Shown one piece after another: positions 1 to 4,486 of a DNA stretch of 4,486 nt. Origin of the DNA: a virus. Lineage: Duplodnaviria; Heunggongvirae; Uroviricota; Caudoviricetes. Location: positions 1 to 4,486 of the IMG/VR virus record IMGVR_UViG_2630968639_000001; one strand, written 5' to 3'. The notes under the pieces are model-generated. The model worked only from the letters and a program-made list of their open reading frames with translations, did not search any database and was not told where the DNA came from. The position numbers and the translations under genes are program-made. The first letter of the stretch is position 1. Every line of letters begins with the position of its first letter.

Positions 1-446
1 GCACCTTTGTGTGTGATACGCAGGCGTGTACCGATGCCATTATTAATTGCGTTACCACCAGCAGCACCGGCAGCGTTACTACCACCATTGCCACCGCGTC
101 CATAGACAGTCACACCTGCGTTGATTACAAGGCTGATATAAGAGTTGGTAAGTGAACTCGGGAAATCTAAACATGGCACGCCGCTACTGGACGACACCAG
201 ATCCCCTGTAATGGTAACAACGACTGGCGTCGCCCCCTGGGATTTTAAATAGTTGATCAGTGTGTCTTTGTTGTAGTTATGATTCGCACCGATGCTGTAC
301 TGAACTTCTTTAGATCGCCCGGCCATTTGAGACATTGAACCAGCCGCTGGCAGTTGCACCGCCGTTCGAGCCGCACTCATCCATCTCTGGCCTGTCACAC
401 TGACAGCCGAAGACCCAATCCAACCGGGAACACCGACAATTGGCAC
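1..446 (-). CDS. Putative T2-type gp38-like tail-fibre adhesin, N-terminal part (3'-partial, continues beyond window start)
   Basis: Hand translation from GTG 446..444 gives MPIVGVPGWIGSSAVSVTGQRWMSAARTAVQLPAAGSMSQMAGRSKEVQYSIGANHNYNKDTLINYLKSQGATPVVVTITGDLVSSSSGVPCLDFPSSLTNSYISLVINAGVTVYGRGGNGGSNAAGAAGGNAINNGIGTRLRITHKG with no stop through position 1. AAGGAG (plus strand 454..459) sits 7 nt upstream of the GTG. The N-terminal VGVPGWIGSSAV..TGQRWMS motif and the glycine-rich GRGGNGGSN..GG motif match my recollection of T2/T6-type gp38 adhesins. The ORF track misses it because it is partial and GTG-initiated. Confidence 0.7.
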   Translation of the reverse strand, partial: MPIVGVPGWIGSSAVSVTGQRWMSAARTAVQLPAAGSMSQMAGRSKEVQYSIGANHNYNKDTLINYLKSQGATPVVVTITGDLVSSSSGVPCLDFPSSLTNSYISLVINAGVTVYGRGGNGGSNAAGAAGGNAINNGIGTRLRITHKG

Positions 447-453
447 ATCTAAT

Positions 454-459
454 CTCCTT
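454..459 (-). promoter_or_regulatory. Shine-Dalgarno (AAGGAG on minus strand) for the downstream adhesin-like ORF
   Basis: Plus strand ctcctt at 454..459 is AAGGAG on the coding strand, 7 nt upstream of GTG 446..444. Confidence 0.6.
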
Positions 460-480
460 TTTGATGTGAATATCCTGAAT

Positions 481-500
481 GGTGAGGGTGGCCCCTCACC
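481..500 (-). other. GC-rich intercistronic stem-loop (8-bp stem, 4-nt loop) between the fibre stop and the adhesin start
   Basis: GGTGAGGG (481-488) pairs perfectly with CCCTCACC (493-500). On the minus-strand transcript it lies 11 nt after the TAA and is followed by AUUCAGGAUAUU, with no U-tract. Confidence 0.4.
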
Positions 501-511
501 ATTCACCTTGA

Positions 512-3500
512 TTACATTTTTGCCTTCAGTTCGCGCACTTCCTCGCGCAGCTCTTTGACAGCCTCGACCAACATGCCGATAACGCCGTTGTAGTTAAGAC
601 GCAGACGAGGCTCTCCTGACTGATCGTTATGGTCAACCGTTACCAGTTCAGGCTGAACATTCTGGACGTCCTGAGCGATGAGGCCGCCAGACTGCTCATA
701 ACGGCCACAGACCTGAATCTCGTAGAGAACACCTTCGATCTGCTCCAGCTTGTCGAGCGCCCGCTCAATTTTGCGAATATTGCGCTTACTACGGCGGTCG
801 GAACGGATGTAAACGTCATTAAAACTACCGTTGCCTGCGCAAACCCAAGTGCCGTCGTTCTGGAGATAAGCGGCAGCGTCAGTGCCGTTTGCGGTACGTG
901 AGTTGTTGATCATGTAAAAACCAAACTGACTGTTTCCCAAGCCACCCAAGAAGAATTTGCGATCCGCGTGGTCTTGTCTCAACAACGCTTGTGCAGAGCT
1001 TGTACTTACAGCGTTCCTCCCGAAGATGACGTTCTGGTTACGCATATCTATCCACGCGCCAGAGCCGCTGTTGATGGAAAAACGGTTGGCGTAAACCCAC
1101 GCACTTGACGTGATGTCACCCGTTACACTCAACGGCTTAAGGCTTTGCAGCGTGCTATTAACGAACCTAAAAACATGGGCGCTATTGGCGTAAACATCCA
1201 GAATGCCATCTCCGTTCTGTTTAAAGCCGGTGTCATTGTCACCCAGAACAATGGAATTACCGCCAAGACCATTGACCACACCCAGCCCAAGACCACCGTT
1301 AACAACAGCACCATTGCCCATTGTTACTCTGCCATTAGTGAGATCTACATAAAATGGACGAAGCGAACCTATATCACCATTTTCTCCCTGGTCTTTTGCT
1401 GTCGGGATAAGGTAAAAATTATTTTCGGAACGGCGAAAAATCATCCCGTATGCCGCATCGTAAATGCGTAACCCATCCGTAGAGCGGATCTTAAGCTGTC
1501 CGGACATCGTACCGCCGCTGTTTTTCATAAATAGCGCATCAATCCAGCCTGCAAATCCCGACTTATTAATGTATAAATTTCCATCATTTGCCAGAATGCC
1601 TCCACCTTGCGTCTTGAGGGGCTGACTCACATTTTGCAGCGTCAGCACACCAGTCATTGTTCCGCCAGAAATCGGTAACGCACCGACATCAGCCGCAGTG
1701 GGTTTGAGAGCAGTGTTGTAATCTCTGCGCCAGGCAGGGGCATACGCGCTACCGTGATTAATATAGGTGAACTGAGCACTGGCAATACCACCTCCGGTTG
1801 TCGTTGTAGGCGTAGTAACTCGGATGGTCATTGCGCCTTCGTGACCTAAAACCTCGATAACCGCACCAGCAAGACAAATATTGCCGACACCTGTATCAGT
1901 GATAATTTTATTGTCGGCATATGACCAAGAGCCTTTCATCATCCAATACGGTACGGCGAAAGCACCACGCTCCTTCAGCCATGCGATAAATTCAGCGGTA
2001 GTCCAGTTGCCAGCCCCAGTACTGTATGACGCGCTAAACGTCTGTGCAGCCCCAACATCTTTCGCTGTGGGTTTATGAGCAGTGGTATAGACCTGCGCCC
2101 AACCAGACCAATTCGCTGTCGAAGTATCACGGCGTGAACGAACATAAACCGGTGCATGAGCACCATCCGTTCCGCTCCAGCCAACAAGCATCTCGCCCTC
2201 ACCAGAAGCACTCGCACCTTTCATGTGCAATACGTTGCCATACATGGTCGGGTAGCTATTGTTGTACGCCTCATACATTTGAATGCCAGCAGTGCCTTGA
2301 GTAGAGCCGCTTAACGCCGTAACTCGGCCACGAGATACCAATGTATTAATATTGATATCGCCTGAACCATCAAACTTAACACCATTGATGTTTCTCGCTG
2401 TTTGCAACTTCGTAGCCGTTGAAGCATTGCCATTCAAGCTACCATTTACGCCACCAGTAACATTGAGTCCATTAGCGATCGTAACAGCACCATTGGCATT
2501 GTTAATGATAAGCGGCCTTAAACTATTATAGGTTCCCAGGCTGTTACCCGAATTGGTCAACATGAAATATGTGTTTGAACCATCGTTTCGGATAAAGAAT
2601 CCGTAGCTTCCGTAGGCAATGCGCAGACCATTCGCCGATTTTGAAATGATCTCACCAGTAGCCGTTAAACCGCCGTTGAGATTTCCTCCGGTTATTGGTA
2701 ATGCGCCGACATCCGTGGCGGTCGGTTTAATGTGCGAACTGTAAATGACATATACCGTTCCATCAGTAAGACCAGTTGGTTTATTCGCTGTATAAGTTGG
2801 TGATGTATGAATCGTTACGCTGGCGTTACTGGTATAATCCCACTGAATATTAACACCTGTGGCGTAATTACCTATTTCAACATAAACATCATAGGTATCA
2901 CCGGATGTATTCACCCATGCAAAATTAGTAAATCCAACCGATGTCCGTCGCCATAATGCACCAGTAATACCCTTTGGATTTCCATTTCCGGCACGCAGAA
3001 CCAGCTCAGAGATGCCTGCTTGATGCGGGGAGCCAACGTTATACCCTGCACCACCAATCAGGCTTATGTAAACCACGGAACTGGCCTGTGGCATGGTTAC
3101 AGTTGCCAGCTTGAACCATCCGGCACCACCACTAAAAGATATTGTTGCTGAGTTGATCGTGCCTATAGACCTTGGAGTTAGCTCAATGTTTTTAGAACCG
3201 TCAAACGACACCCCATTAATAGTACGCGCAGTCTGCAACTTCGTAGCAGTAGCCGCATTACCTGTTGTATTCTGATTACCAGTCGTATTAACACCTGGCA
3301 AATTAATATTTGCAGTACCATCAAAGCTCACGCCGCCGATAGTTCTTGCCGTCTGTAGTTTTGTAGCAGTTGCGGCATTACCAGTGGTGTTCTGATTACC
3401 CGTAGTATTTACACCTGGAAGGTTGATATTTGCAGAACCGTCGAAACCAACTCCACCGATAGATCTTGCCGTCTGCAATTTCGTTGCTGTACTTGCATTA

Positions 3501-4486
3501 CCATTTAATGTTCCGGTGATACCACCAGTAACAGACAACGGACCTGAAACTGTTCCTCCGGTTGTTGGCAGTGCTCCAATATCTAACGGCGTCGGTTTCT
3601 GATGTGTGCTATACATCGTATAAACAACACCATAGGTAACGCTGGAAGGCTTACTCGCTGAATATGTTGGCGATGTATAAATAGAAACTGACGCATTTGC
3701 AGTACAATCCCAATGGATATTTACACTCGTCGCATAATTGCCAATTTCAACGTAAATATCATATGTATCGCCGGATGTGTTGATCCAGGCGAAATTCGCT
3801 AATCCGACAGCTGTACGCTTCCACAAAGCACCTGTAATTCCTTTGGGGTTTCCATTGCCTGCTCGTAGAACCAGTTCTGAAATGCCTGCCTGATGTGGGG
3901 AACCGACGTTGTAACCAGCGCCACCAATCAATGCGATGTAAACGATGGAACTCGCTTGTGGCATGGTAACCGTAGCCAGTTTGAACCACCCTGCCCCGCC
4001 AGAGAAAGACATCGTTACTGAATTTAAAGTACCAATATCTTTCGGCGTTAATGTGATATCCGCAGTCAGTGCTTTTCCGTTAACTTTTCGGTTAGATGGC
4101 ACCCTGCTATTCGCATTGTCATTGGCTGCTTTAACTGCTTTTGGCGTTGCGGCCAGCGATTCACTGGTGCTGTCGACAGCACTGCTAAGTTTCACAACAC
4201 CTTTAGTTGTAAGGCTTGCGTCTTCCATCGCAACTGCACCGGCAATCTCTTCAGCACGATCAGCAGCAGCTTCCGCACGGGTCGCAGCGGATTCAGCAGC
4301 AGTTTTGCTCTGAGATGCTGCCGTCGCACTGCCTGCCGCCTCTGTTGCCTTCGTGGATGCCGTCGTGGCGCTGCCCTTCGCTGCTGACGCCTGTCTGGTC
4401 GCCTCATCTTTTGAAGCAGACGCCGATGAGGCCGATGACGCCGCCGAACTGGCGGACGATGCGGCAGCCGTTTTTGAGGATTCTGC
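512..4486 (-). CDS. Side/long tail fibre protein, 5'-partial (N-terminus lies beyond window end); lambda Stf-like N-terminal region, repeated distal modules, C-terminal peptidase S74 intramolecular chaperone domain
   Basis: ORF track gives 1238 aa from ATG 4228..4226 to TAA 514..512. My hand translation of the minus strand over 4229..4486 in the same frame has no stop and reads AESSKTAAASSASSAASSASASSASKDEATRQASAAKGSATTASTKATEAAGSATAASQSKTAAESAATRAEAAADRAEEIAGAVA before MEDASLTT, so Met 4228 is internal. The following motif KGVVKLSSAVDSTSESLAATPKAVK matches the conserved lambda Stf-type motif from memory. KPTxxDVGALP motifs recur four times and ATKLQTAR tail-fibre repeats are present. No convincing SD precedes ATG 4228. 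Confidence 0.93.
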   Translation of the reverse strand, partial: AESSKTAAASSASSAASSASSASASKDEATRQASAAKGSATTASTKATEAAGSATAASQSKTAAESAATRAEAAADRAEEIAGAVAMEDASLTTKGVVKLSSAVDSTSESLAATPKAVKAANDNANSRVPSNRKVNGKALTADITLTPKDIGTLNSVTMSFSGGAGWFKLATVTMPQASSIVYIALIGGAGYNVGSPHQAGISELVLRAGNGNPKGITGALWKRTAVGLANFAWINTSGDTYDIYVEIGNYATSVNIHWDCTANASVSIYTSPTYSASKPSSVTYGVVYTMYSTHQKPTPLDIGALPTTGGTVSGPLSVTGGITGTLNGNASTATKLQTARSIGGVGFDGSANINLPGVNTTGNQNTTGNAATATKLQTARTIGGVSFDGTANINLPGVNTTGNQNTTGNAATATKLQTARTINGVSFDGSKNIELTPRSIGTINSATISFSGGAGWFKLATVTMPQASSVVYISLIGGAGYNVGSPHQAGISELVLRAGNGNPKGITGALWRRTSVGFTNFAWVNTSGDTYDVYVEIGNYATGVNIQWDYTSNASVTIHTSPTYTANKPTGLTDGTVYVIYSSHIKPTATDVGALPITGGNLNGGLTATGEIISKSANGLRIAYGSYGFFIRNDGSNTYFMLTNSGNSLGTYNSLRPLIINNANGAVTIANGLNVTGGVNGSLNGNASTATKLQTARNINGVKFDGSGDININTLVSRGRVTALSGSTQGTAGIQMYEAYNNSYPTMYGNVLHMKGASASGEGEMLVGWSGTDGAHAPVYVRSRRDTSTANWSGWAQVYTTAHKPTAKDVGAAQTFSASYSTGAGNWTTAEFIAWLKERGAFAVPYWMMKGSWSYADNKIITDTGVGNICLAGAVIEVLGHEGAMTIRVTTPTTTTGGGIASAQFTYINHGSAYAPAWRRDYNTALKPTAADVGALPISGGTMTGVLTLQNVSQPLKTQGGGILANDGNLYINKSGFAGWIDALFMKNSGGTMSGQLKIRSTDGLRIYDAAYGMIFRRSENNFYLIPTAKDQGENGDIGSLRPFYVDLTNGRVTMGNGAVVNGGLGLGVVNGLGGNSIVLGDNDTGFKQNGDGILDVYANSAHVFRFVNSTLQSLKPLSVTGDITSSAWVYANRFSINSGSGAWIDMRNQNVIFGRNAVSTSSAQALLRQDHADRKFFLGGLGNSQFGFYMINNSRTANGTDAAAYLQNDGTWVCAGNGSFNDVYIRSDRRSKRNIRKIERALDKLEQIEGVLYEIQVCGRYEQSGGLIAQDVQNVQPELVTVDHNDQSGEPRLRLNYNGVIGMLVEAVKELREEVRELKAKM
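515..802 (-). other. Peptidase S74 / intramolecular chaperone autoproteolytic domain (C-terminal 96 codons of the fibre CDS); predicted Ser/Lys dyad Ser 802..800 and Lys 787..785
   Basis: C-terminal sequence SDRRSKRNIRKIERALDKLEQIEGVLYEIQVCGRYEQSGGLIAQDVQNVQPELVTVDHNDQSGEPRLRLNYNGVIGMLVEAVKELREEVRELKAKM. The S-x4-K spacing and the GxIAQ..PELV...NYNG.IG.L.EA.KEL pattern fit the S74 chaperone domains of endosialidase tailspikes and T5 L-shaped fibre as I recall them. Confidence 0.8.
1295..1495 (-). repeat. Copy 2 of the paralogous 'GLRI...SLRP...NG.VT' module (aa ~912-978)
   Basis: IRSTDGLRIYDAAYGMIFRRSENNFYLIPTAKDQGENGDIGSLRPFYVDLTNGRVTMGNG; protein-level similarity only. Confidence 0.5.
2342..2440 (-). 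repeat. Isolated fourth, more diverged copy of the ATKLQTAR repeat unit
   Basis: Encodes SLNGNASTATKLQTARNINGVKFDGSGDININT (fibre aa ~597-629); nucleotide similarity to the array is visible around 2391-2440 against 3341-3390. Confidence 0.7.
2450..2650 (-). repeat. Copy 1 of a paralogous 'GLRI...SLRP...NG.VT' module within the fibre (aa ~527-593)
   Basis: ISKSANGLRIAYGSYGFFIRNDGSNTYFMLTNSGNSLGTYNSLRPLIINNANGAVTIANG aligns with the copy at 1295..1495; protein-level similarity only. Confidence 0.5.
2681..3187 (-). repeat. Copy 2 of the duplicated module of about 169 codons (fibre aa ~348-516)
   Basis: Protein IELTPRSIGTINSATISFSGGAGWFKLATVTMPQASSVVYISLIGGAGYNVGSPHQAGISELVLRAGNGNPKGITGALWRRT...KPTATDVGALPITGG. 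Plus-strand shadow ORFs 3093..3275 and 3945..4313 both begin MVTVASLNHPAPP, an independent sign of the duplication. Confidence 0.85.
3188..3502 (-). repeat. Tandem array of 120-nt (40-codon) repeats, about 2.6 copies, encoding ATKLQTAR-type tail-fibre repeats
   Basis: Units at 3383..3502, 3263..3382 and partial 3188..3262 encode GNA[AS]TATKLQTAR[ST]IGGV[GS]FDG[ST]ANINLPGVNTTGNQNTT. Blocks 3361-3420 and 3241-3300 align base for base with scattered mismatches. Confidence 0.85.
3551..4057 (-). repeat. Copy 1 of a diverged duplicated module of about 169 codons (fibre aa ~58-226)
   Basis: Protein ITLTPKDIGTLNSVTMSFSGGAGWFKLATVTMPQASSIVYIALIGGAGYNVGSPHQAGISELVLRAGNGNPKGITGALWKRT...KPTPLDIGALPTTGG aligns colinearly with copy 2. 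The nucleotide similarity is visible at an 870-nt offset, for example 3751-3810 against 2881-2940. Confidence 0.85.
4229..4486 (-). other. Ala/Ser/Thr-rich low-complexity segment of the fibre protein (lambda Stf-type shaft region), in frame with and upstream of Met 4228
   Basis: Hand translation codon by codon: 86 codons with no stop, dominated by A, S, T, K and E in short quasi-repeats (SAxxA, AAxSxx). Confidence 0.8.

What the first reader, a model, noticed from the sequence alone, without database searches (positions are those of the whole stretch)
1..802. T2-type 'process then cap' fibre tip: S74 self-cleaving chaperone followed by a gp38-like adhesin gene
The fibre ends in a predicted autoproteolytic S74 chaperone, and the next gene begins with a gp38-adhesin-like N-terminus and glycine-rich motif. 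In T2-type phages gp37 is C-terminally processed and the gp38 adhesin then binds the new tip and sets receptor specificity. Here that tip appears grafted onto a lambda Stf-type N-terminus. The adhesin's specificity-determining segments would lie beyond the window.
Basis: partly seen in the sequence, partly recalled or inferred. Interest (0 to 1): 0.7.

Follow-up and report, generated by a model that had tools for sequence, protein, structure and literature searches.

The report
Self-cleaving fibre tip plus gp38 adhesin
This is the far end of a tail-fibre gene from an E. coli phage-plasmid, followed by the start of a T2-type gp38 receptor-binding cap gene; the mechanism is a known one, but here it sits in a temperate phage and part of the gene is nearly identical to that of a virulent T-even phage.

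Summary
On the minus strand, a long fibre ORF ends at 512 with a Peptidase_S74 intramolecular chaperone (window 802-515). It keeps the Ser1229/Lys1234 pair and the DVYIR^SDRRSK site, which matches the known S16 and fPS gp37 cleavage sites. After a 65-nt spacer containing a hairpin, a GTG-started ORF (446-1, 148 aa) is a true T2-type gp38. It hits Pfam Gp38_N and GP38 and the S16 gp38 structure 6F45, and is 72-77% identical to T-even gp38s.

The context is an SSU5-like phage-plasmid, not a T-even phage. The same gene occurs in 87 PLSDB plasmids and 33 complete E. coli genomes, never on a chromosome. PGAP already names it "receptor-recognizing protein".

Three refinements:
- The segment before the cleavage site resembles phage Mu protein S, not T2 gp37.
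- The lambda Stf likeness is limited to the shaft.
- The gp38 gene is mosaic. From the first glycine-rich motif it becomes nearly identical in DNA to the OmpA-dependent T-even phage PaulHMueller, indicating recent exchange.

The window's last 23 nt match no relative, so its own receptor is unknown. Known mechanism, new context: moderate interest.

The parts
512..4486 (-). Side tail fibre gene. It is open at the 5' end, with 1324 codons in the window and the stop codon at 514-512.
   Evidence: The best DNA matches are fibre genes of SSU5-like phage-plasmids, at 92-96% identity with patchy coverage. Window residue 1 aligns to residue 369 of the 1455-aa fibre of CP059946.
4094..4486 (-). Lambda Stf-like Ala/Ser-rich shaft (residues 1-86) and Phage_fiber_2 motif (residues 91-131).
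   Evidence: Pfam Phage_fiber_2, E 3.3e-18. The equivalent region of the CP059946 fibre is 59% identical to lambda Stf residues 231-394. It is about 82% identical in DNA to side-tail-fibre genes of lambdoid phages.
1163..1270 (-). T2/S16 gp37-like distal shaft motif GLGGNSIVLGDNDTGFKQNGDGILDVYANSAHVFRF (residues 1073-1108).
   Evidence: It aligns to T2 gp37 GLGGNSITFGDSDTGIKQNGDGLLDIYANSVQVFRF and to 6f45_A residues 21-55.
821..1090 (-). Phage Mu S-like domain (residues 1133-1222). It sits between the gp37-like motif and the cleavage strand and is absent from T2 and S16 gp37.
   Evidence: PDB 5yvq_A (Mu tail fiber protein S), chain residues 340-445, E 2.5e-35; the close similarity fades after about residue 430. 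Alignment A3 shows a gap of about 105 columns in T2 gp37 here.
803..820 (-). Pre-cleavage strand NDVYIR (residues 1223-1228), the predicted new C-terminus and gp38 docking tip.
   Evidence: It is identical to the DVYIR strand of fPS phage gp37 and to NVYIR of T2. The same strand precedes the chaperone in 4 of 5 independent loci that carry a Gp38_N gene.
515..802 (-). S74 intramolecular chaperone of 96 aa. Predicted nucleophile Ser1229 (802-800) and Lys1234 (787-785); C-terminal helix LVEAVKELREEVRELKAKM.
   Evidence: Pfam PF13884, model positions 1-58 starting at Ser1229. S, D, R and K are invariant in the alignment with T2, JK1, S16 and SSU5. 6f45_A E 4.2e-12.
447..511 (-). 65-nt spacer between the fibre and adhesin genes, with a perfect 13-bp hairpin (476-505) and a GGAG ribosome-binding site (454-457).
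   Evidence: dG -29.9 kcal/mol, z -4.5, no U-run after the stem. A hairpin occupies the same place, with a different stem sequence, in an Enterobacter phage-plasmid and in T2 and PaulHMueller.
321..446 (-). Adhesin N-terminal attachment domain (Gp38_N, residues 1-42), with W9 and W22. Ser37 stands where T2, S16 and SSU5_022 have a third Trp.
   Evidence: Pfam PF21721, E 3.8e-15. W9 and W22 are invariant in alignment A1. The residue 37 column is shown.
1..308 (-). Adhesin middle domain and first glycine-rich motifs (GP38 PF05268, residues 47-148), truncated by the window edge.
   Evidence: Pfam E 1.1e-40, model positions 1-104 of 218. 6f45_D residues 6-147.
24..117 (-). Recombination junction and T-even-identical segment. 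DNA identity to T-even phage PaulHMueller jumps from about 55-80% to near 100% at the first glycine-rich motif; gene nt 358-423 are an exact 66-nt match.
   Evidence: In the full-length homologue CP059946 the 92-100% DNA identity continues to about nt 764 of 783.
1..23 (-). Last 23 nt of the ORF in the window. They diverge from every relative (6 mismatches, 3 of them synonymous) and encode ITHKG instead of the ITNNG seen in every phage-plasmid homologue examined.
   Evidence: Neither the exact nor the degenerate pattern was found in IMG/VR, and the exact pattern was not found in JGI metagenomes. None of the 7 homologues retrieved has it.

Best explanation
The window holds the distal end of the side-tail-fibre locus of an SSU5-like phage-plasmid, a temperate siphovirus of Enterobacteriaceae that replicates as a plasmid.

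Proposed mechanism:
1. The fibre protein trimerises with the help of its own C-terminal S74 intramolecular chaperone.
2. The chaperone then cuts itself off between Arg1228 and Ser1229, using Ser1229 and Lys1234. This releases 96 residues and exposes a flat tip made of three DVYIR strands.
3. One copy of the gp38-type adhesin encoded by the next gene docks on that tip through its N-terminal Gp38_N domain (W9, W22).
4. The adhesin presents its glycine-rich, hypervariable C-terminal domain to an outer-membrane receptor.

The portable unit is the cassette [DVYIR strand + chaperone + cap gene]. Here it is joined to a Mu S-like domain and a lambda Stf-like shaft. The cap gene is itself mosaic: a phage-plasmid-specific attachment half is joined at the first glycine-rich motif to a receptor-binding half that is exchanged with virulent T-even phages.

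Shown here: the homology, the conserved catalytic and docking residues, the gene order, the distribution and the mosaic junctions. Inferred: cleavage, 3:1 capping, presence of the adhesin in the virion, and the receptor. Close relatives probably bind OmpA; the receptor of this allele is unknown.
For: - Family assignments: Pfam S74, Gp38_N and GP38; PHROG 2056; PDB 6f45_D and 6f45_A.
- Similarity to T-even gp38: 72-77% identity by tblastn; 72% to JK1, 64% to T2 and 46% to S16 in alignment.
- Cleavage context: DVYIR^SDRRSK matches S16 DLNVS^SDRRIKK and fPS DVYIR^SDGRLKI, with invariant S, D, R and K.
- Complete homologues are 260 aa with the full GP38 profile, E 1.4e-70.
- Gene order in relatives is J, fibre, adhesin, holin/endolysin, with no tfa gene.
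- A Gp38_N gene directly follows an NDVYIRSD + chaperone fibre end in 4 of 5 independent loci.
- The same fibre tip (95% identity over the last 200 aa) in SSU5 is followed by a different 178-aa Gp38_N cap. That cap type is in 61 plasmids; the GP38 type is in 87 plasmids.
- The gene occurs only on plasmids: 33 of 5426 complete E. coli genomes, none on a chromosome.
- Mosaic and exchange: the receptor-binding half of the CP059946 adhesin is 96.4% identical in protein and 96.9% in DNA to PaulHMueller, against 66.7% in the attachment domain. The in-window part of the junction is shown.
- PaulHMueller depends on OmpA (PMC8594841). RB49-like gp38 binds OmpA and some O antigens (PMC9569957).
Against: - Nothing here shows proteolysis, capping or virion incorporation.
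- The tip that would be capped is preceded by a Mu S-like domain rather than the T2 or S16 gp37 structure. The docking geometry therefore rests only on the conserved DVYIR strand.
- A third Trp of the attachment domain, conserved in T2, S16 and SSU5_022, is Ser37 here.
- The chaperone itself is only about 45% identical to T-even gp37 chaperones and is closer (56-57%) to Stx-phage fibre chaperones. The fibre end and the cap gene therefore do not share one recent T-even origin.
- The window ends at residue 148 and its last 23 nt match no known allele, so an intact receptor-binding domain in this particular element is not demonstrated.
Confidence: 0.75

Rival explanations
1. Two receptor-binding sites. 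The Mu S-like domain just above the tip is itself a lipopolysaccharide-core binding module, and the gp38 cap adds or modulates a second, protein receptor. Under this reading the cap does not set specificity alone. This elaborates the main model rather than excluding it.
For: There is strong homology to the distal region of Mu protein S (5yvq_A, E 2.5e-35). SSU5 has a 95% identical fibre end and is described as specific for core lipopolysaccharide (Kim et al. 2014, cited in PMC13340146). The same Mu S-like domain is kept under three different cap types.
Against: Only Mu S residues up to about 436-445 are matched. The last roughly 60 residues of Mu S and its partner Tfa (gene U) are absent. Which part of Mu S binds lipopolysaccharide was not established here. 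In SSU5 the core specificity could equally reside in its own 178-aa cap.
Confidence: 0.3
2. The downstream protein is only an assembly chaperone, as T4 gp38 and lambda Tfa are, and is not part of the virion.
For: Some database records still label T2-type gp38 genes 'distal long tail fiber assembly catalyst'.
Against: Pfam lists no family other than GP38 and Gp38_N at E <= 0.01. The protein matches the structural adhesin of S16 solved in complex with gp37 (6F45). The fibre already carries its own intramolecular chaperone. Complete homologues carry the full receptor-binding glycine-rich domain, 96% identical to that of a T-even phage whose OmpA dependence is documented.
Confidence: 0.03
3. In this particular element the adhesin gene is a remnant or is disrupted just beyond the window, so the cap is not made.
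For: The last 23 nt of the window diverge from all relatives. They replace the two Asn of ITNNG, present in every phage-plasmid homologue examined, with His-Lys. No matching sequence was found in IMG/VR or JGI metagenomes. Partial or frameshifted copies exist in databases, for example P0072.
Against: The divergent stretch stays in frame. It is still 77% identical to relatives, and 3 of its 6 changes are synonymous, which is the pattern of a switch to another allele rather than a junction with unrelated DNA. The 423 nt upstream are 100% identical to an intact gene.
Confidence: 0.1
4. The window is a fragment of a T-even (Straboviridae) genome rather than of a temperate phage-plasmid.
For: Both the gp38 and the S74-ended fibre are hallmarks of T2-type phages.
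Against: All long, high-identity DNA matches are 105-146 kb non-mobilizable plasmids and SSU5-like phages. The fibre carries a lambda Stf-type shaft and a Mu S-like domain that T2 and S16 gp37 lack. GC content is about 48-54%, against 38% for the PaulHMueller gp37 gene.
Confidence: 0.02

Closest known systems
T2 / S16-type long tail fibre tip (gp37 with C-terminal intramolecular chaperone, plus gp38 adhesin; PDB 6F45)
   Same: The fibre gene ends in an S74 chaperone with the Ser/Lys pair and a (D/N)VYIR^SD or DLNVS^SD cleavage context. The next gene encodes Gp38_N plus GP38 with glycine-rich motifs. Identity is 46% to S16 gp38, 64% to T2 gp38 and up to 77% to other T-even gp38s.
   Different: The host element is a temperate siphoviral phage-plasmid, not a virulent myovirus, and the fibre is a side tail fibre encoded after gene J. 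A Mu S-like domain of about 90 aa precedes the docking strand. Ser37 stands where T2 (W37) and S16 (W36) have a Trp. The chaperone is only about 45% identical.
Salmonella phage SSU5 fibre (SSU5_021) and its 178-aa 'tail fiber adhesin' (SSU5_022)
   Same: It has the same genome type and locus. The fibre end is 95% identical over the last 200 aa, including the Mu S-like domain, NDVYIR and the chaperone. The next gene starts with a Gp38_N domain.
   Different: The SSU5 cap has no GP38 or polyglycine domain, overlaps the fibre stop codon instead of following a 65-nt hairpin spacer, and is followed by extra genes such as cor.
[quoted passage not shown]
   Same: They have the identical DVYIR^SD junction. 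The sequence upstream of that single strand is unrelated to S16 gp37, while the chaperone and gp38 are conserved. This is the same narrow mosaic boundary.
   Different: Those are Tequatrovirus long tail fibres. Here the upstream partner is a Mu S-like domain in a phage-plasmid.
Phage Mu tail fibre S with its assembly protein U (PDB 5YVQ)
   Same: Fibre residues 1133-1222 match Mu S residues 340-436 closely (E 2.5e-35), and a Gp34_trimer-type module lies upstream in both.
   Different: Mu S continues for about 60 more residues and needs a separate Tfa (gene U) that stays on the fibre. Here that end is replaced by DVYIR plus a self-cleaving chaperone, and there is no tfa gene.
Lambda Stf/Tfa, and the T4 gp37/gp38 chimera derived from it
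   Same: The Ala/Ser-rich shaft and Phage_fiber_2 motif are shared with lambda Stf, and the fibre gene follows the J gene in the phage-plasmid relatives. Conceptually this is the mirror image of T4, whose ancestral gp37 end and gp38 adhesin were replaced by lambda-type sequences (PMC3157838).
   Different: The closest complete homologue has no Pfam phage_tail_N domain, and there is no Tfa. The distal end is of the T2 type rather than the lambda type.

Membership tests
T2-type gp38 adhesin (Pfam PF21721 + PF05268) | N-terminal attachment domain (Gp38_N) with conserved tryptophans | tested here: met
   PF21721, E 3.8e-15, residues 1-42. W9 and W22 are invariant in alignment A1. One further Trp (T2 W37, S16 W36) is Ser37 here.
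T2-type gp38 adhesin (Pfam PF21721 + PF05268) | Middle domain and first glycine-rich motif matching the GP38 profile | tested here: met
   PF05268, E 1.1e-40, model positions 1-104. 6f45_D residues 6-147, E 1.8e-29.
T2-type gp38 adhesin (Pfam PF21721 + PF05268) | C-terminal array of glycine-rich motifs flanking hypervariable loops (the receptor-binding domain) | tested here: inconclusive
   This part lies beyond the window. Homologues that are 98-100% identical over the 148 aa have it (260 aa, PF05268 positions 1-217). The window's last 23 nt diverge from all of them.
T2-type gp38 adhesin (Pfam PF21721 + PF05268) | Gene lies immediately downstream of a fibre gene that ends in a self-cleaving chaperone | tested here: met
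   A 65-nt spacer separates it from the S74-ended fibre ORF. The same linkage holds in 4 of 5 independent loci.
T2-type gp38 adhesin (Pfam PF21721 + PF05268) | One adhesin monomer caps the processed fibre trimer and is present in the virion | not testable with these tools
   This needs co-purification, virion mass spectrometry or multimer modelling.
Peptidase S74 intramolecular chaperone | Profile match above the curated threshold at the extreme C-terminus of a fibre or spike | tested here: met
   PF13884, 43.6 bits against a cut-off of 22, residues 1229-1283 of 1324.
Peptidase S74 intramolecular chaperone | Ser nucleophile with a Lys five residues downstream (S-D-x-R-x-K) | tested here: met
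   S1229-D-R-R-S-K1234. S, D, R and K are invariant against T2, JK1, S16 and SSU5. The motif aligns to the S16 site DLNVS^SDRRIKK.
Peptidase S74 intramolecular chaperone | Autoproteolytic release after trimerisation | not testable with these tools
   This needs expression of the wild type and of S1229A and K1234A mutants.
Lambda Stf-type side tail fibre | N-terminal phage_tail_N domain (PF08400) | tested here: not met
   The N-terminus is outside the window. The closest complete homologue (CP059946, 1455 aa) gives no PF08400 hit, while lambda Stf gives E 2.7e-75. BLASTP finds no similarity to lambda Stf residues 1-200.
Lambda Stf-type side tail fibre | Ala/Ser-rich shaft followed by the Phage_fiber_2 motif | tested here: met
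   PF03406, E 3.3e-18. 59-72% identity to lambda Stf residues 205-394.
Lambda Stf-type side tail fibre | Separate Tfa assembly protein encoded downstream | tested here: not met
   The downstream gene is gp38-type, and Pfam lists only GP38 and Gp38_N for it at E <= 0.01. In relatives the next genes are holin and endolysin.
SSU5-like phage-plasmid | Closest full-length relatives are plasmids of about 100-120 kb with lambda-like tail genes, lysis genes and partition genes around the fibre locus | tested here: met
   For the window itself this rests on 92-99% DNA identity, because its flanks are not available.

The most novel reading that the evidence does not exclude
The single DVYIR strand, the self-cleaving chaperone and the Gp38_N domain together act as a universal plug and socket. 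Through it, temperate phage-plasmids living inside Enterobacteriaceae and virulent T-even phages that infect the same cells trade receptor-binding caps. The roughly 420-nt receptor-binding segment is 97% identical between an E. coli phage-plasmid and the OmpA-dependent Tequatrovirus PaulHMueller, with the junction at the first glycine-rich motif and partly visible inside this window. That would be a recent instance of such trade. If so, phage-plasmids are a resident reservoir of T-even host-range alleles, and T-even phages are one for them.
Probability: 0.5. Interest if true: 0.55.

Novelty: new member of a known kind. Interest (0 to 1): 0.4.

Why it matters
Reviews and recent large receptor screens treat gp38 adhesins as a feature of T-even (Straboviridae) phages. 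Here the same cap sits on the side fibre of a temperate phage-plasmid, a class of element known to spread antibiotic-resistance genes by infection (PMC9600943).

Three consequences follow:
- Receptor use of these phage-plasmids may be predictable from the gp38 rules worked out for T-even phages.
- There is a natural precedent for moving the cleavage strand, chaperone and cap as a unit onto unrelated fibres, which is useful for host-range engineering.
- Virulent and temperate phages share one pool of receptor-binding modules.

The mechanism itself is not new, and the gene is already named correctly by NCBI's annotation pipeline.

Tried and rejected
- Tfa-type chaperone reading: rejected. Pfam lists only GP38 and Gp38_N for the downstream ORF at E <= 0.01.
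- T-even origin of the window: rejected on DNA matches, fibre composition and GC content.
- NCBIfam: no hits for either protein or for their homologues.
- Rfam: nothing at gathering score.
- Promoter and terminator scan of 1-1000: no promoter-like site; the one terminator-like hit is a weak plus-strand match at chance level. The intergenic hairpin has no U-run, so a classical terminator reading was dropped.
- Recovering the window's own adhesin C-terminus:
  - The exact 26-mer was absent from IMG/VR and from JGI metagenomes.
  - The degenerate GTRLRITHKG pattern was absent from IMG/VR.
  - None of the 7 homologues retrieved from the large protein search has ITHKG.
- The genome-contig scan gave only 5 loci. 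One of them (L008) has a Gp38_N-like motif with no fibre upstream.
- Literature searches for gp38 together with SSU5, phage-plasmid, side tail fiber, temperate or siphovirus found no paper describing this arrangement.
- The S16 structure paper (Dunne 2018) is not held, so the docking details are quoted second-hand from PMC7917993.
- Structure prediction was not run. The tool folds single chains only, and the questions that remain concern a 3:1 complex.
- The direction of the transfer between T-even phage and phage-plasmid could not be decided from GC content.


Full report
**What is in the window.** All coding sequence of interest is on the minus strand. One long ORF enters the window at 4486 and stops at 514-512, giving 1324 codons in the window. 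After a 65-nt spacer, a second ORF starts at GTG 446, preceded by GGAG at 457-454. It runs off the window at position 1 after 148 codons.

**Checking the observation.** The long ORF is a tail fibre.
- Pfam finds Phage_fiber_2 (residues 91-131) and three Gp34_trimer stretches.
- At the extreme C-terminus it finds Peptidase_S74 (residues 1229-1283, E 3.6e-11, 43.6 bits against a cut-off of 22).
- The short ORF hits Gp38_N (residues 1-42, E 3.8e-15) and GP38 PF05268 (residues 47-148, E 1.1e-40).
- It also hits PHROG 2056 (E 1.6e-59) and the solved S16 adhesin 6f45_D (E 1.8e-29).
- By tblastn it is 72-77% identical to gp38 of many T-even phages. In alignment it is 72% identical to JK1, 64% to T2 and 46% to S16.
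- Pfam lists no other family, such as a Tfa-type chaperone, at E <= 0.01.

**The cleavage site.** The S74 model starts at Ser1229 (window 802-800), and Lys1234 (787-785) lies five residues downstream. In alignment with T2, JK1, S16 and SSU5 fibres the S, D, R and K of S-D-x-R-x-K are invariant. PMC7917993 reports that S16 gp37 is cleaved at DLNVS^SDRRIKK. It predicts cleavage after DVYIR in fPS phages (DVYIR^SDGRLKI) and proposes that the three DVYIR strands form the flat tip on which the gp38 tryptophans dock. The window reads NDVYIR^SDRRSKRN. I therefore predict cleavage between Arg1228 and Ser1229, releasing a 96-aa chaperone. This is inference from homology; no proteolysis was tested.

**Where it comes from.** The best DNA matches are not T-even phages. 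They are SSU5-like phage-plasmids.
- Matching phage records include Escherichia phage CMS-2020a, Cyrano and Salmonella phage SSU5.
- Some part of the window matches 458 plasmid records, 449 of them non-mobilizable.
- The adhesin gene plus spacer is found at 89% identity or more in 33 of 5426 complete E. coli genomes. It is always on plasmids (106-218 kb, nearly all 106-120 kb) and never on a chromosome.
- By protein search it is in 87 PLSDB plasmids: Enterobacter 40, Escherichia 30, Citrobacter 13, Salmonella 3 and Shigella 1.
- In these records the order is tail genes (L, K, I, J), fibre, adhesin, holin, endolysin, with no tfa gene. PGAP already names the gene 'receptor-recognizing protein'.
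- A complete homologue in CP059946, 99% identical over the 148 aa, is 260 aa. It covers the whole GP38 profile (E 1.4e-70) and has poly-glycine runs.

**Correction 1: the shaft.**
- The in-window N-terminal part is 59-72% identical to lambda Stf residues 205-394, which comprise the Ala/Ser-rich region and Phage_fiber_2.
- Window residue 1 corresponds to residue 369 of the CP059946 fibre, so the real N-terminus is not in the window.
- That homologue gives no hit to the lambda Stf N-terminal domain PF08400, which lambda Stf itself hits at E 2.7e-75.
- 'Lambda Stf-type N-terminus' should therefore read 'lambda Stf-type shaft'.

**Correction 2: the tip.**
- Searching solved structures with the last 362 residues gave an unexpected best hit, phage Mu tail fibre protein S (5yvq_A). 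The matched stretch is Mu S residues 340-445 (E 2.5e-35), with close similarity to about residue 430, and it corresponds to fibre residues 1133-1222.
- A five-way alignment shows the order of segments:
  - First comes a T2/S16-like motif, GLGGNSIVLGDNDTGFKQNGDGILDVYANSAHVFRF.
  - Then comes a block that T2 and S16 gp37 lack (a gap of about 105 alignment columns in T2), of which residues 1133-1222 are Mu S-like.
  - Then comes NDVYIR and the chaperone.
- The homology to Mu S fades in the last residues before the cleavage site. The last roughly 60 residues of Mu S and its Tfa partner have no counterpart here.
- The chaperone is about 45% identical to T-even gp37 chaperones but 56-57% identical to those of Stx-phage fibres.
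- The fibre end is thus a multi-source mosaic. What it shares with T2 at the docking point is essentially one beta-strand, the same 'tight cut' noted for the fPS phages.

**Correction 3: the cap gene is itself mosaic.**
- SSU5 has a fibre end 95% identical over the last 200 residues. It is followed by a different 178-aa protein that shares only the Gp38_N domain.
- That cap type occurs in 61 plasmids, mostly annotated 'hypothetical'.
- In species-representative genomes, 4 of 5 loci with a Gp38_N gene have it directly after a fibre ending ...NDVYIRSD(R/I)R.K plus chaperone. Three of them also have the Mu S-like domain and yet other cap bodies.
- Within the GP38-type cap, identity to the virulent Tequatrovirus PaulHMueller (Bas45) is uneven. 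It is 66.7% in the attachment domain, 81.6% in the middle domain and 96.4% in the receptor-binding part.
- At the DNA level, CP059946 and PaulHMueller are 55-75% identical up to gene nt ~340. From there to nt ~764 they are 92-100% identical, and 96.9% by megablast.
- The junction falls on the first glycine-rich motif (VYGRGGNGG), where GRM-mediated recombination between T-even gp38 genes has been described (PMC3157838).
- The start of this segment is inside the window. Gene nt 358-423 (window 89-24) match PaulHMueller exactly over 66 nt, whereas upstream identity is about 60-70%.
- A second phage-plasmid allele (CP149811 and Enterobacter plasmids) departs from the window at the same point.

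**Receptor.** PaulHMueller depends on OmpA (PMC8594841). RB49-like phages have a receptor-binding segment 87-92% identical in DNA to the phage-plasmid one, and their gp38 binds OmpA and some O antigens (PMC9569957). OmpA is therefore the best guess for the CP059946-type phage-plasmids. It cannot be transferred to this window with confidence:
- The last 23 nt of the window diverge from every relative. There are 6 mismatches, 3 of them synonymous.
- They encode ITHKG instead of ITNNG.
- The variant was found neither in IMG/VR or JGI metagenomes nor among the retrieved homologues.
- The pattern looks like a further switch of allele rather than a junction with unrelated DNA, but only the extended contig can tell.

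**How it most likely works.**
1. Three fibre chains fold with the help of their own C-terminal chaperone.
2. The chaperone cuts itself off at R1228|S1229.
3. One adhesin monomer docks through its N-terminal domain on the exposed DVYIR tip.
4. Its glycine-rich C-terminal domain binds an outer-membrane protein.

This is the T2/S16 mechanism as summarised in PMC9569957 and PMC7917993. A non-exclusive elaboration is that the Mu S-like domain contributes lipopolysaccharide binding, given that SSU5 is described as core-lipopolysaccharide specific. One difference may matter: a Trp conserved in T2 (W37), S16 (W36) and SSU5_022 is Ser37 here, and is Asn or Ala in three other phage-plasmid alleles (P0001, P0002, P0028).

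**Comparison with what is known, and novelty.** Both proteins are members of known families by every sequence criterion testable here. The arrangement is present and correctly named in many database records. I found no paper in the searchable library that describes gp38-type adhesins in SSU5-like phage-plasmids or their exchange with T-even phages. Recent work treats Gp38 as a Straboviridae feature. Conceptually this is the mirror image of T4, whose ancestral gp37 end and gp38 adhesin were replaced by lambda-type sequences. I rate it a new member of a known kind, of moderate interest. The most interesting element is the evidence for recent module exchange across the virulent/temperate divide.

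**Side observations.**
- A perfect 13-bp hairpin (window 476-505, dG -29.9 kcal/mol, z -4.5) follows the fibre stop codon.
  - A hairpin with a different stem sequence occupies the same place in an Enterobacter phage-plasmid.
  - A C(UUCG)G hairpin does so in T2 and PaulHMueller.
  - It has no U-run, and its role is untested. It might tune the ratio of fibre to cap.
- The fibre contains a duplicated domain of about 150 aa and four copies of a 40-aa motif. One module is extra relative to the CP059946 fibre.

Noticed in passing
window 821-1090 (minus strand; fibre residues 1133-1222): The domain immediately before the cleavage strand is homologous to phage Mu tail fibre protein S (PDB 5yvq_A, matched residues 340-445, E 2.5e-35). 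It is absent from T2 and S16 gp37. The same domain precedes the chaperone in SSU5, two Kluyvera plasmid contigs and a MAG contig.
   Followed up: yes
window 24-117 (minus strand; adhesin gene nt ~330-423): There is a sharp mosaic junction at the first glycine-rich motif. Upstream, DNA identity to T-even phage PaulHMueller is about 60-70%. Downstream it is near 100%, with an exact 66-nt run. In the full-length homologue CP059946 this continues for about 420 nt at 96.9% identity.
   Followed up: yes
window 1-23 (minus strand): The last 23 nt of the adhesin ORF differ from every relative (6 mismatches, 3 of them synonymous). They encode ITHKG where every phage-plasmid homologue examined has ITNNG. 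No match was found in IMG/VR, JGI metagenomes or the protein search, so the window's own receptor-binding allele is unknown.
   Followed up: partly
window 476-505 (minus strand), in the 447-511 spacer: A perfect 13-bp hairpin with a 4-nt loop (dG -29.9 kcal/mol, z -4.5) lies just after the fibre stop codon, with no U-run. A hairpin with a different stem sequence lies at the same place in an Enterobacter phage-plasmid (L015), and a C(UUCG)G hairpin does so in T2 and PaulHMueller. SSU5 has no spacer. Its function is unknown.
   Followed up: partly
window 336-338 (minus strand; adhesin Ser37): A Trp of the attachment domain that is conserved in T2, JK1, PaulHMueller (W37), S16 (W36) and SSU5_022 is Ser here. 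It is Asn or Ala in three other phage-plasmid GP38-type caps (P0001, P0002, P0028). W9 and W22 are kept.
   Followed up: no
window 2364-3852 (minus strand): The fibre has internal repeats. A duplicated module of at least 300 nt (2683-2982 and 3553-3852, 70% DNA identity) encodes the MSFSGGAGWFKLATVTMPQ... domain. There are also four copies of a GNA(S/A)TATKLQTAR.I.GV.FDG motif, three of them in tandem at 120-nt spacing. The window's fibre has one module more than the CP059946 fibre.
   Followed up: partly
window 515-802 (the chaperone), compared with phage records: The intramolecular chaperone is closer to those of Stx-converting phage tail fibres (56-57% identity) than to T-even gp37 chaperones (about 45%). 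The fibre end and the cap gene therefore do not share one recent T-even origin.
   Followed up: no
L002:9701-10234 (SSU5_022) and 61 PLSDB plasmids: An alternative 178-aa cap, with a Gp38_N domain and an unrelated body lacking polyglycine, follows the same fibre end in SSU5-type plasmids. Most are Enterobacter plasmids, and the protein is usually annotated 'hypothetical protein'.
   Followed up: partly
L008:7866-8555 (MAG 'Bacilli bacterium' contig): A Gp38_N-like motif (GWVGSSAVSETGQRWM...) lies inside a 230-codon open frame. No fibre gene lies directly upstream; the upstream ORF is small and looks like a lipoprotein. This differs from the other four loci.
   Followed up: no
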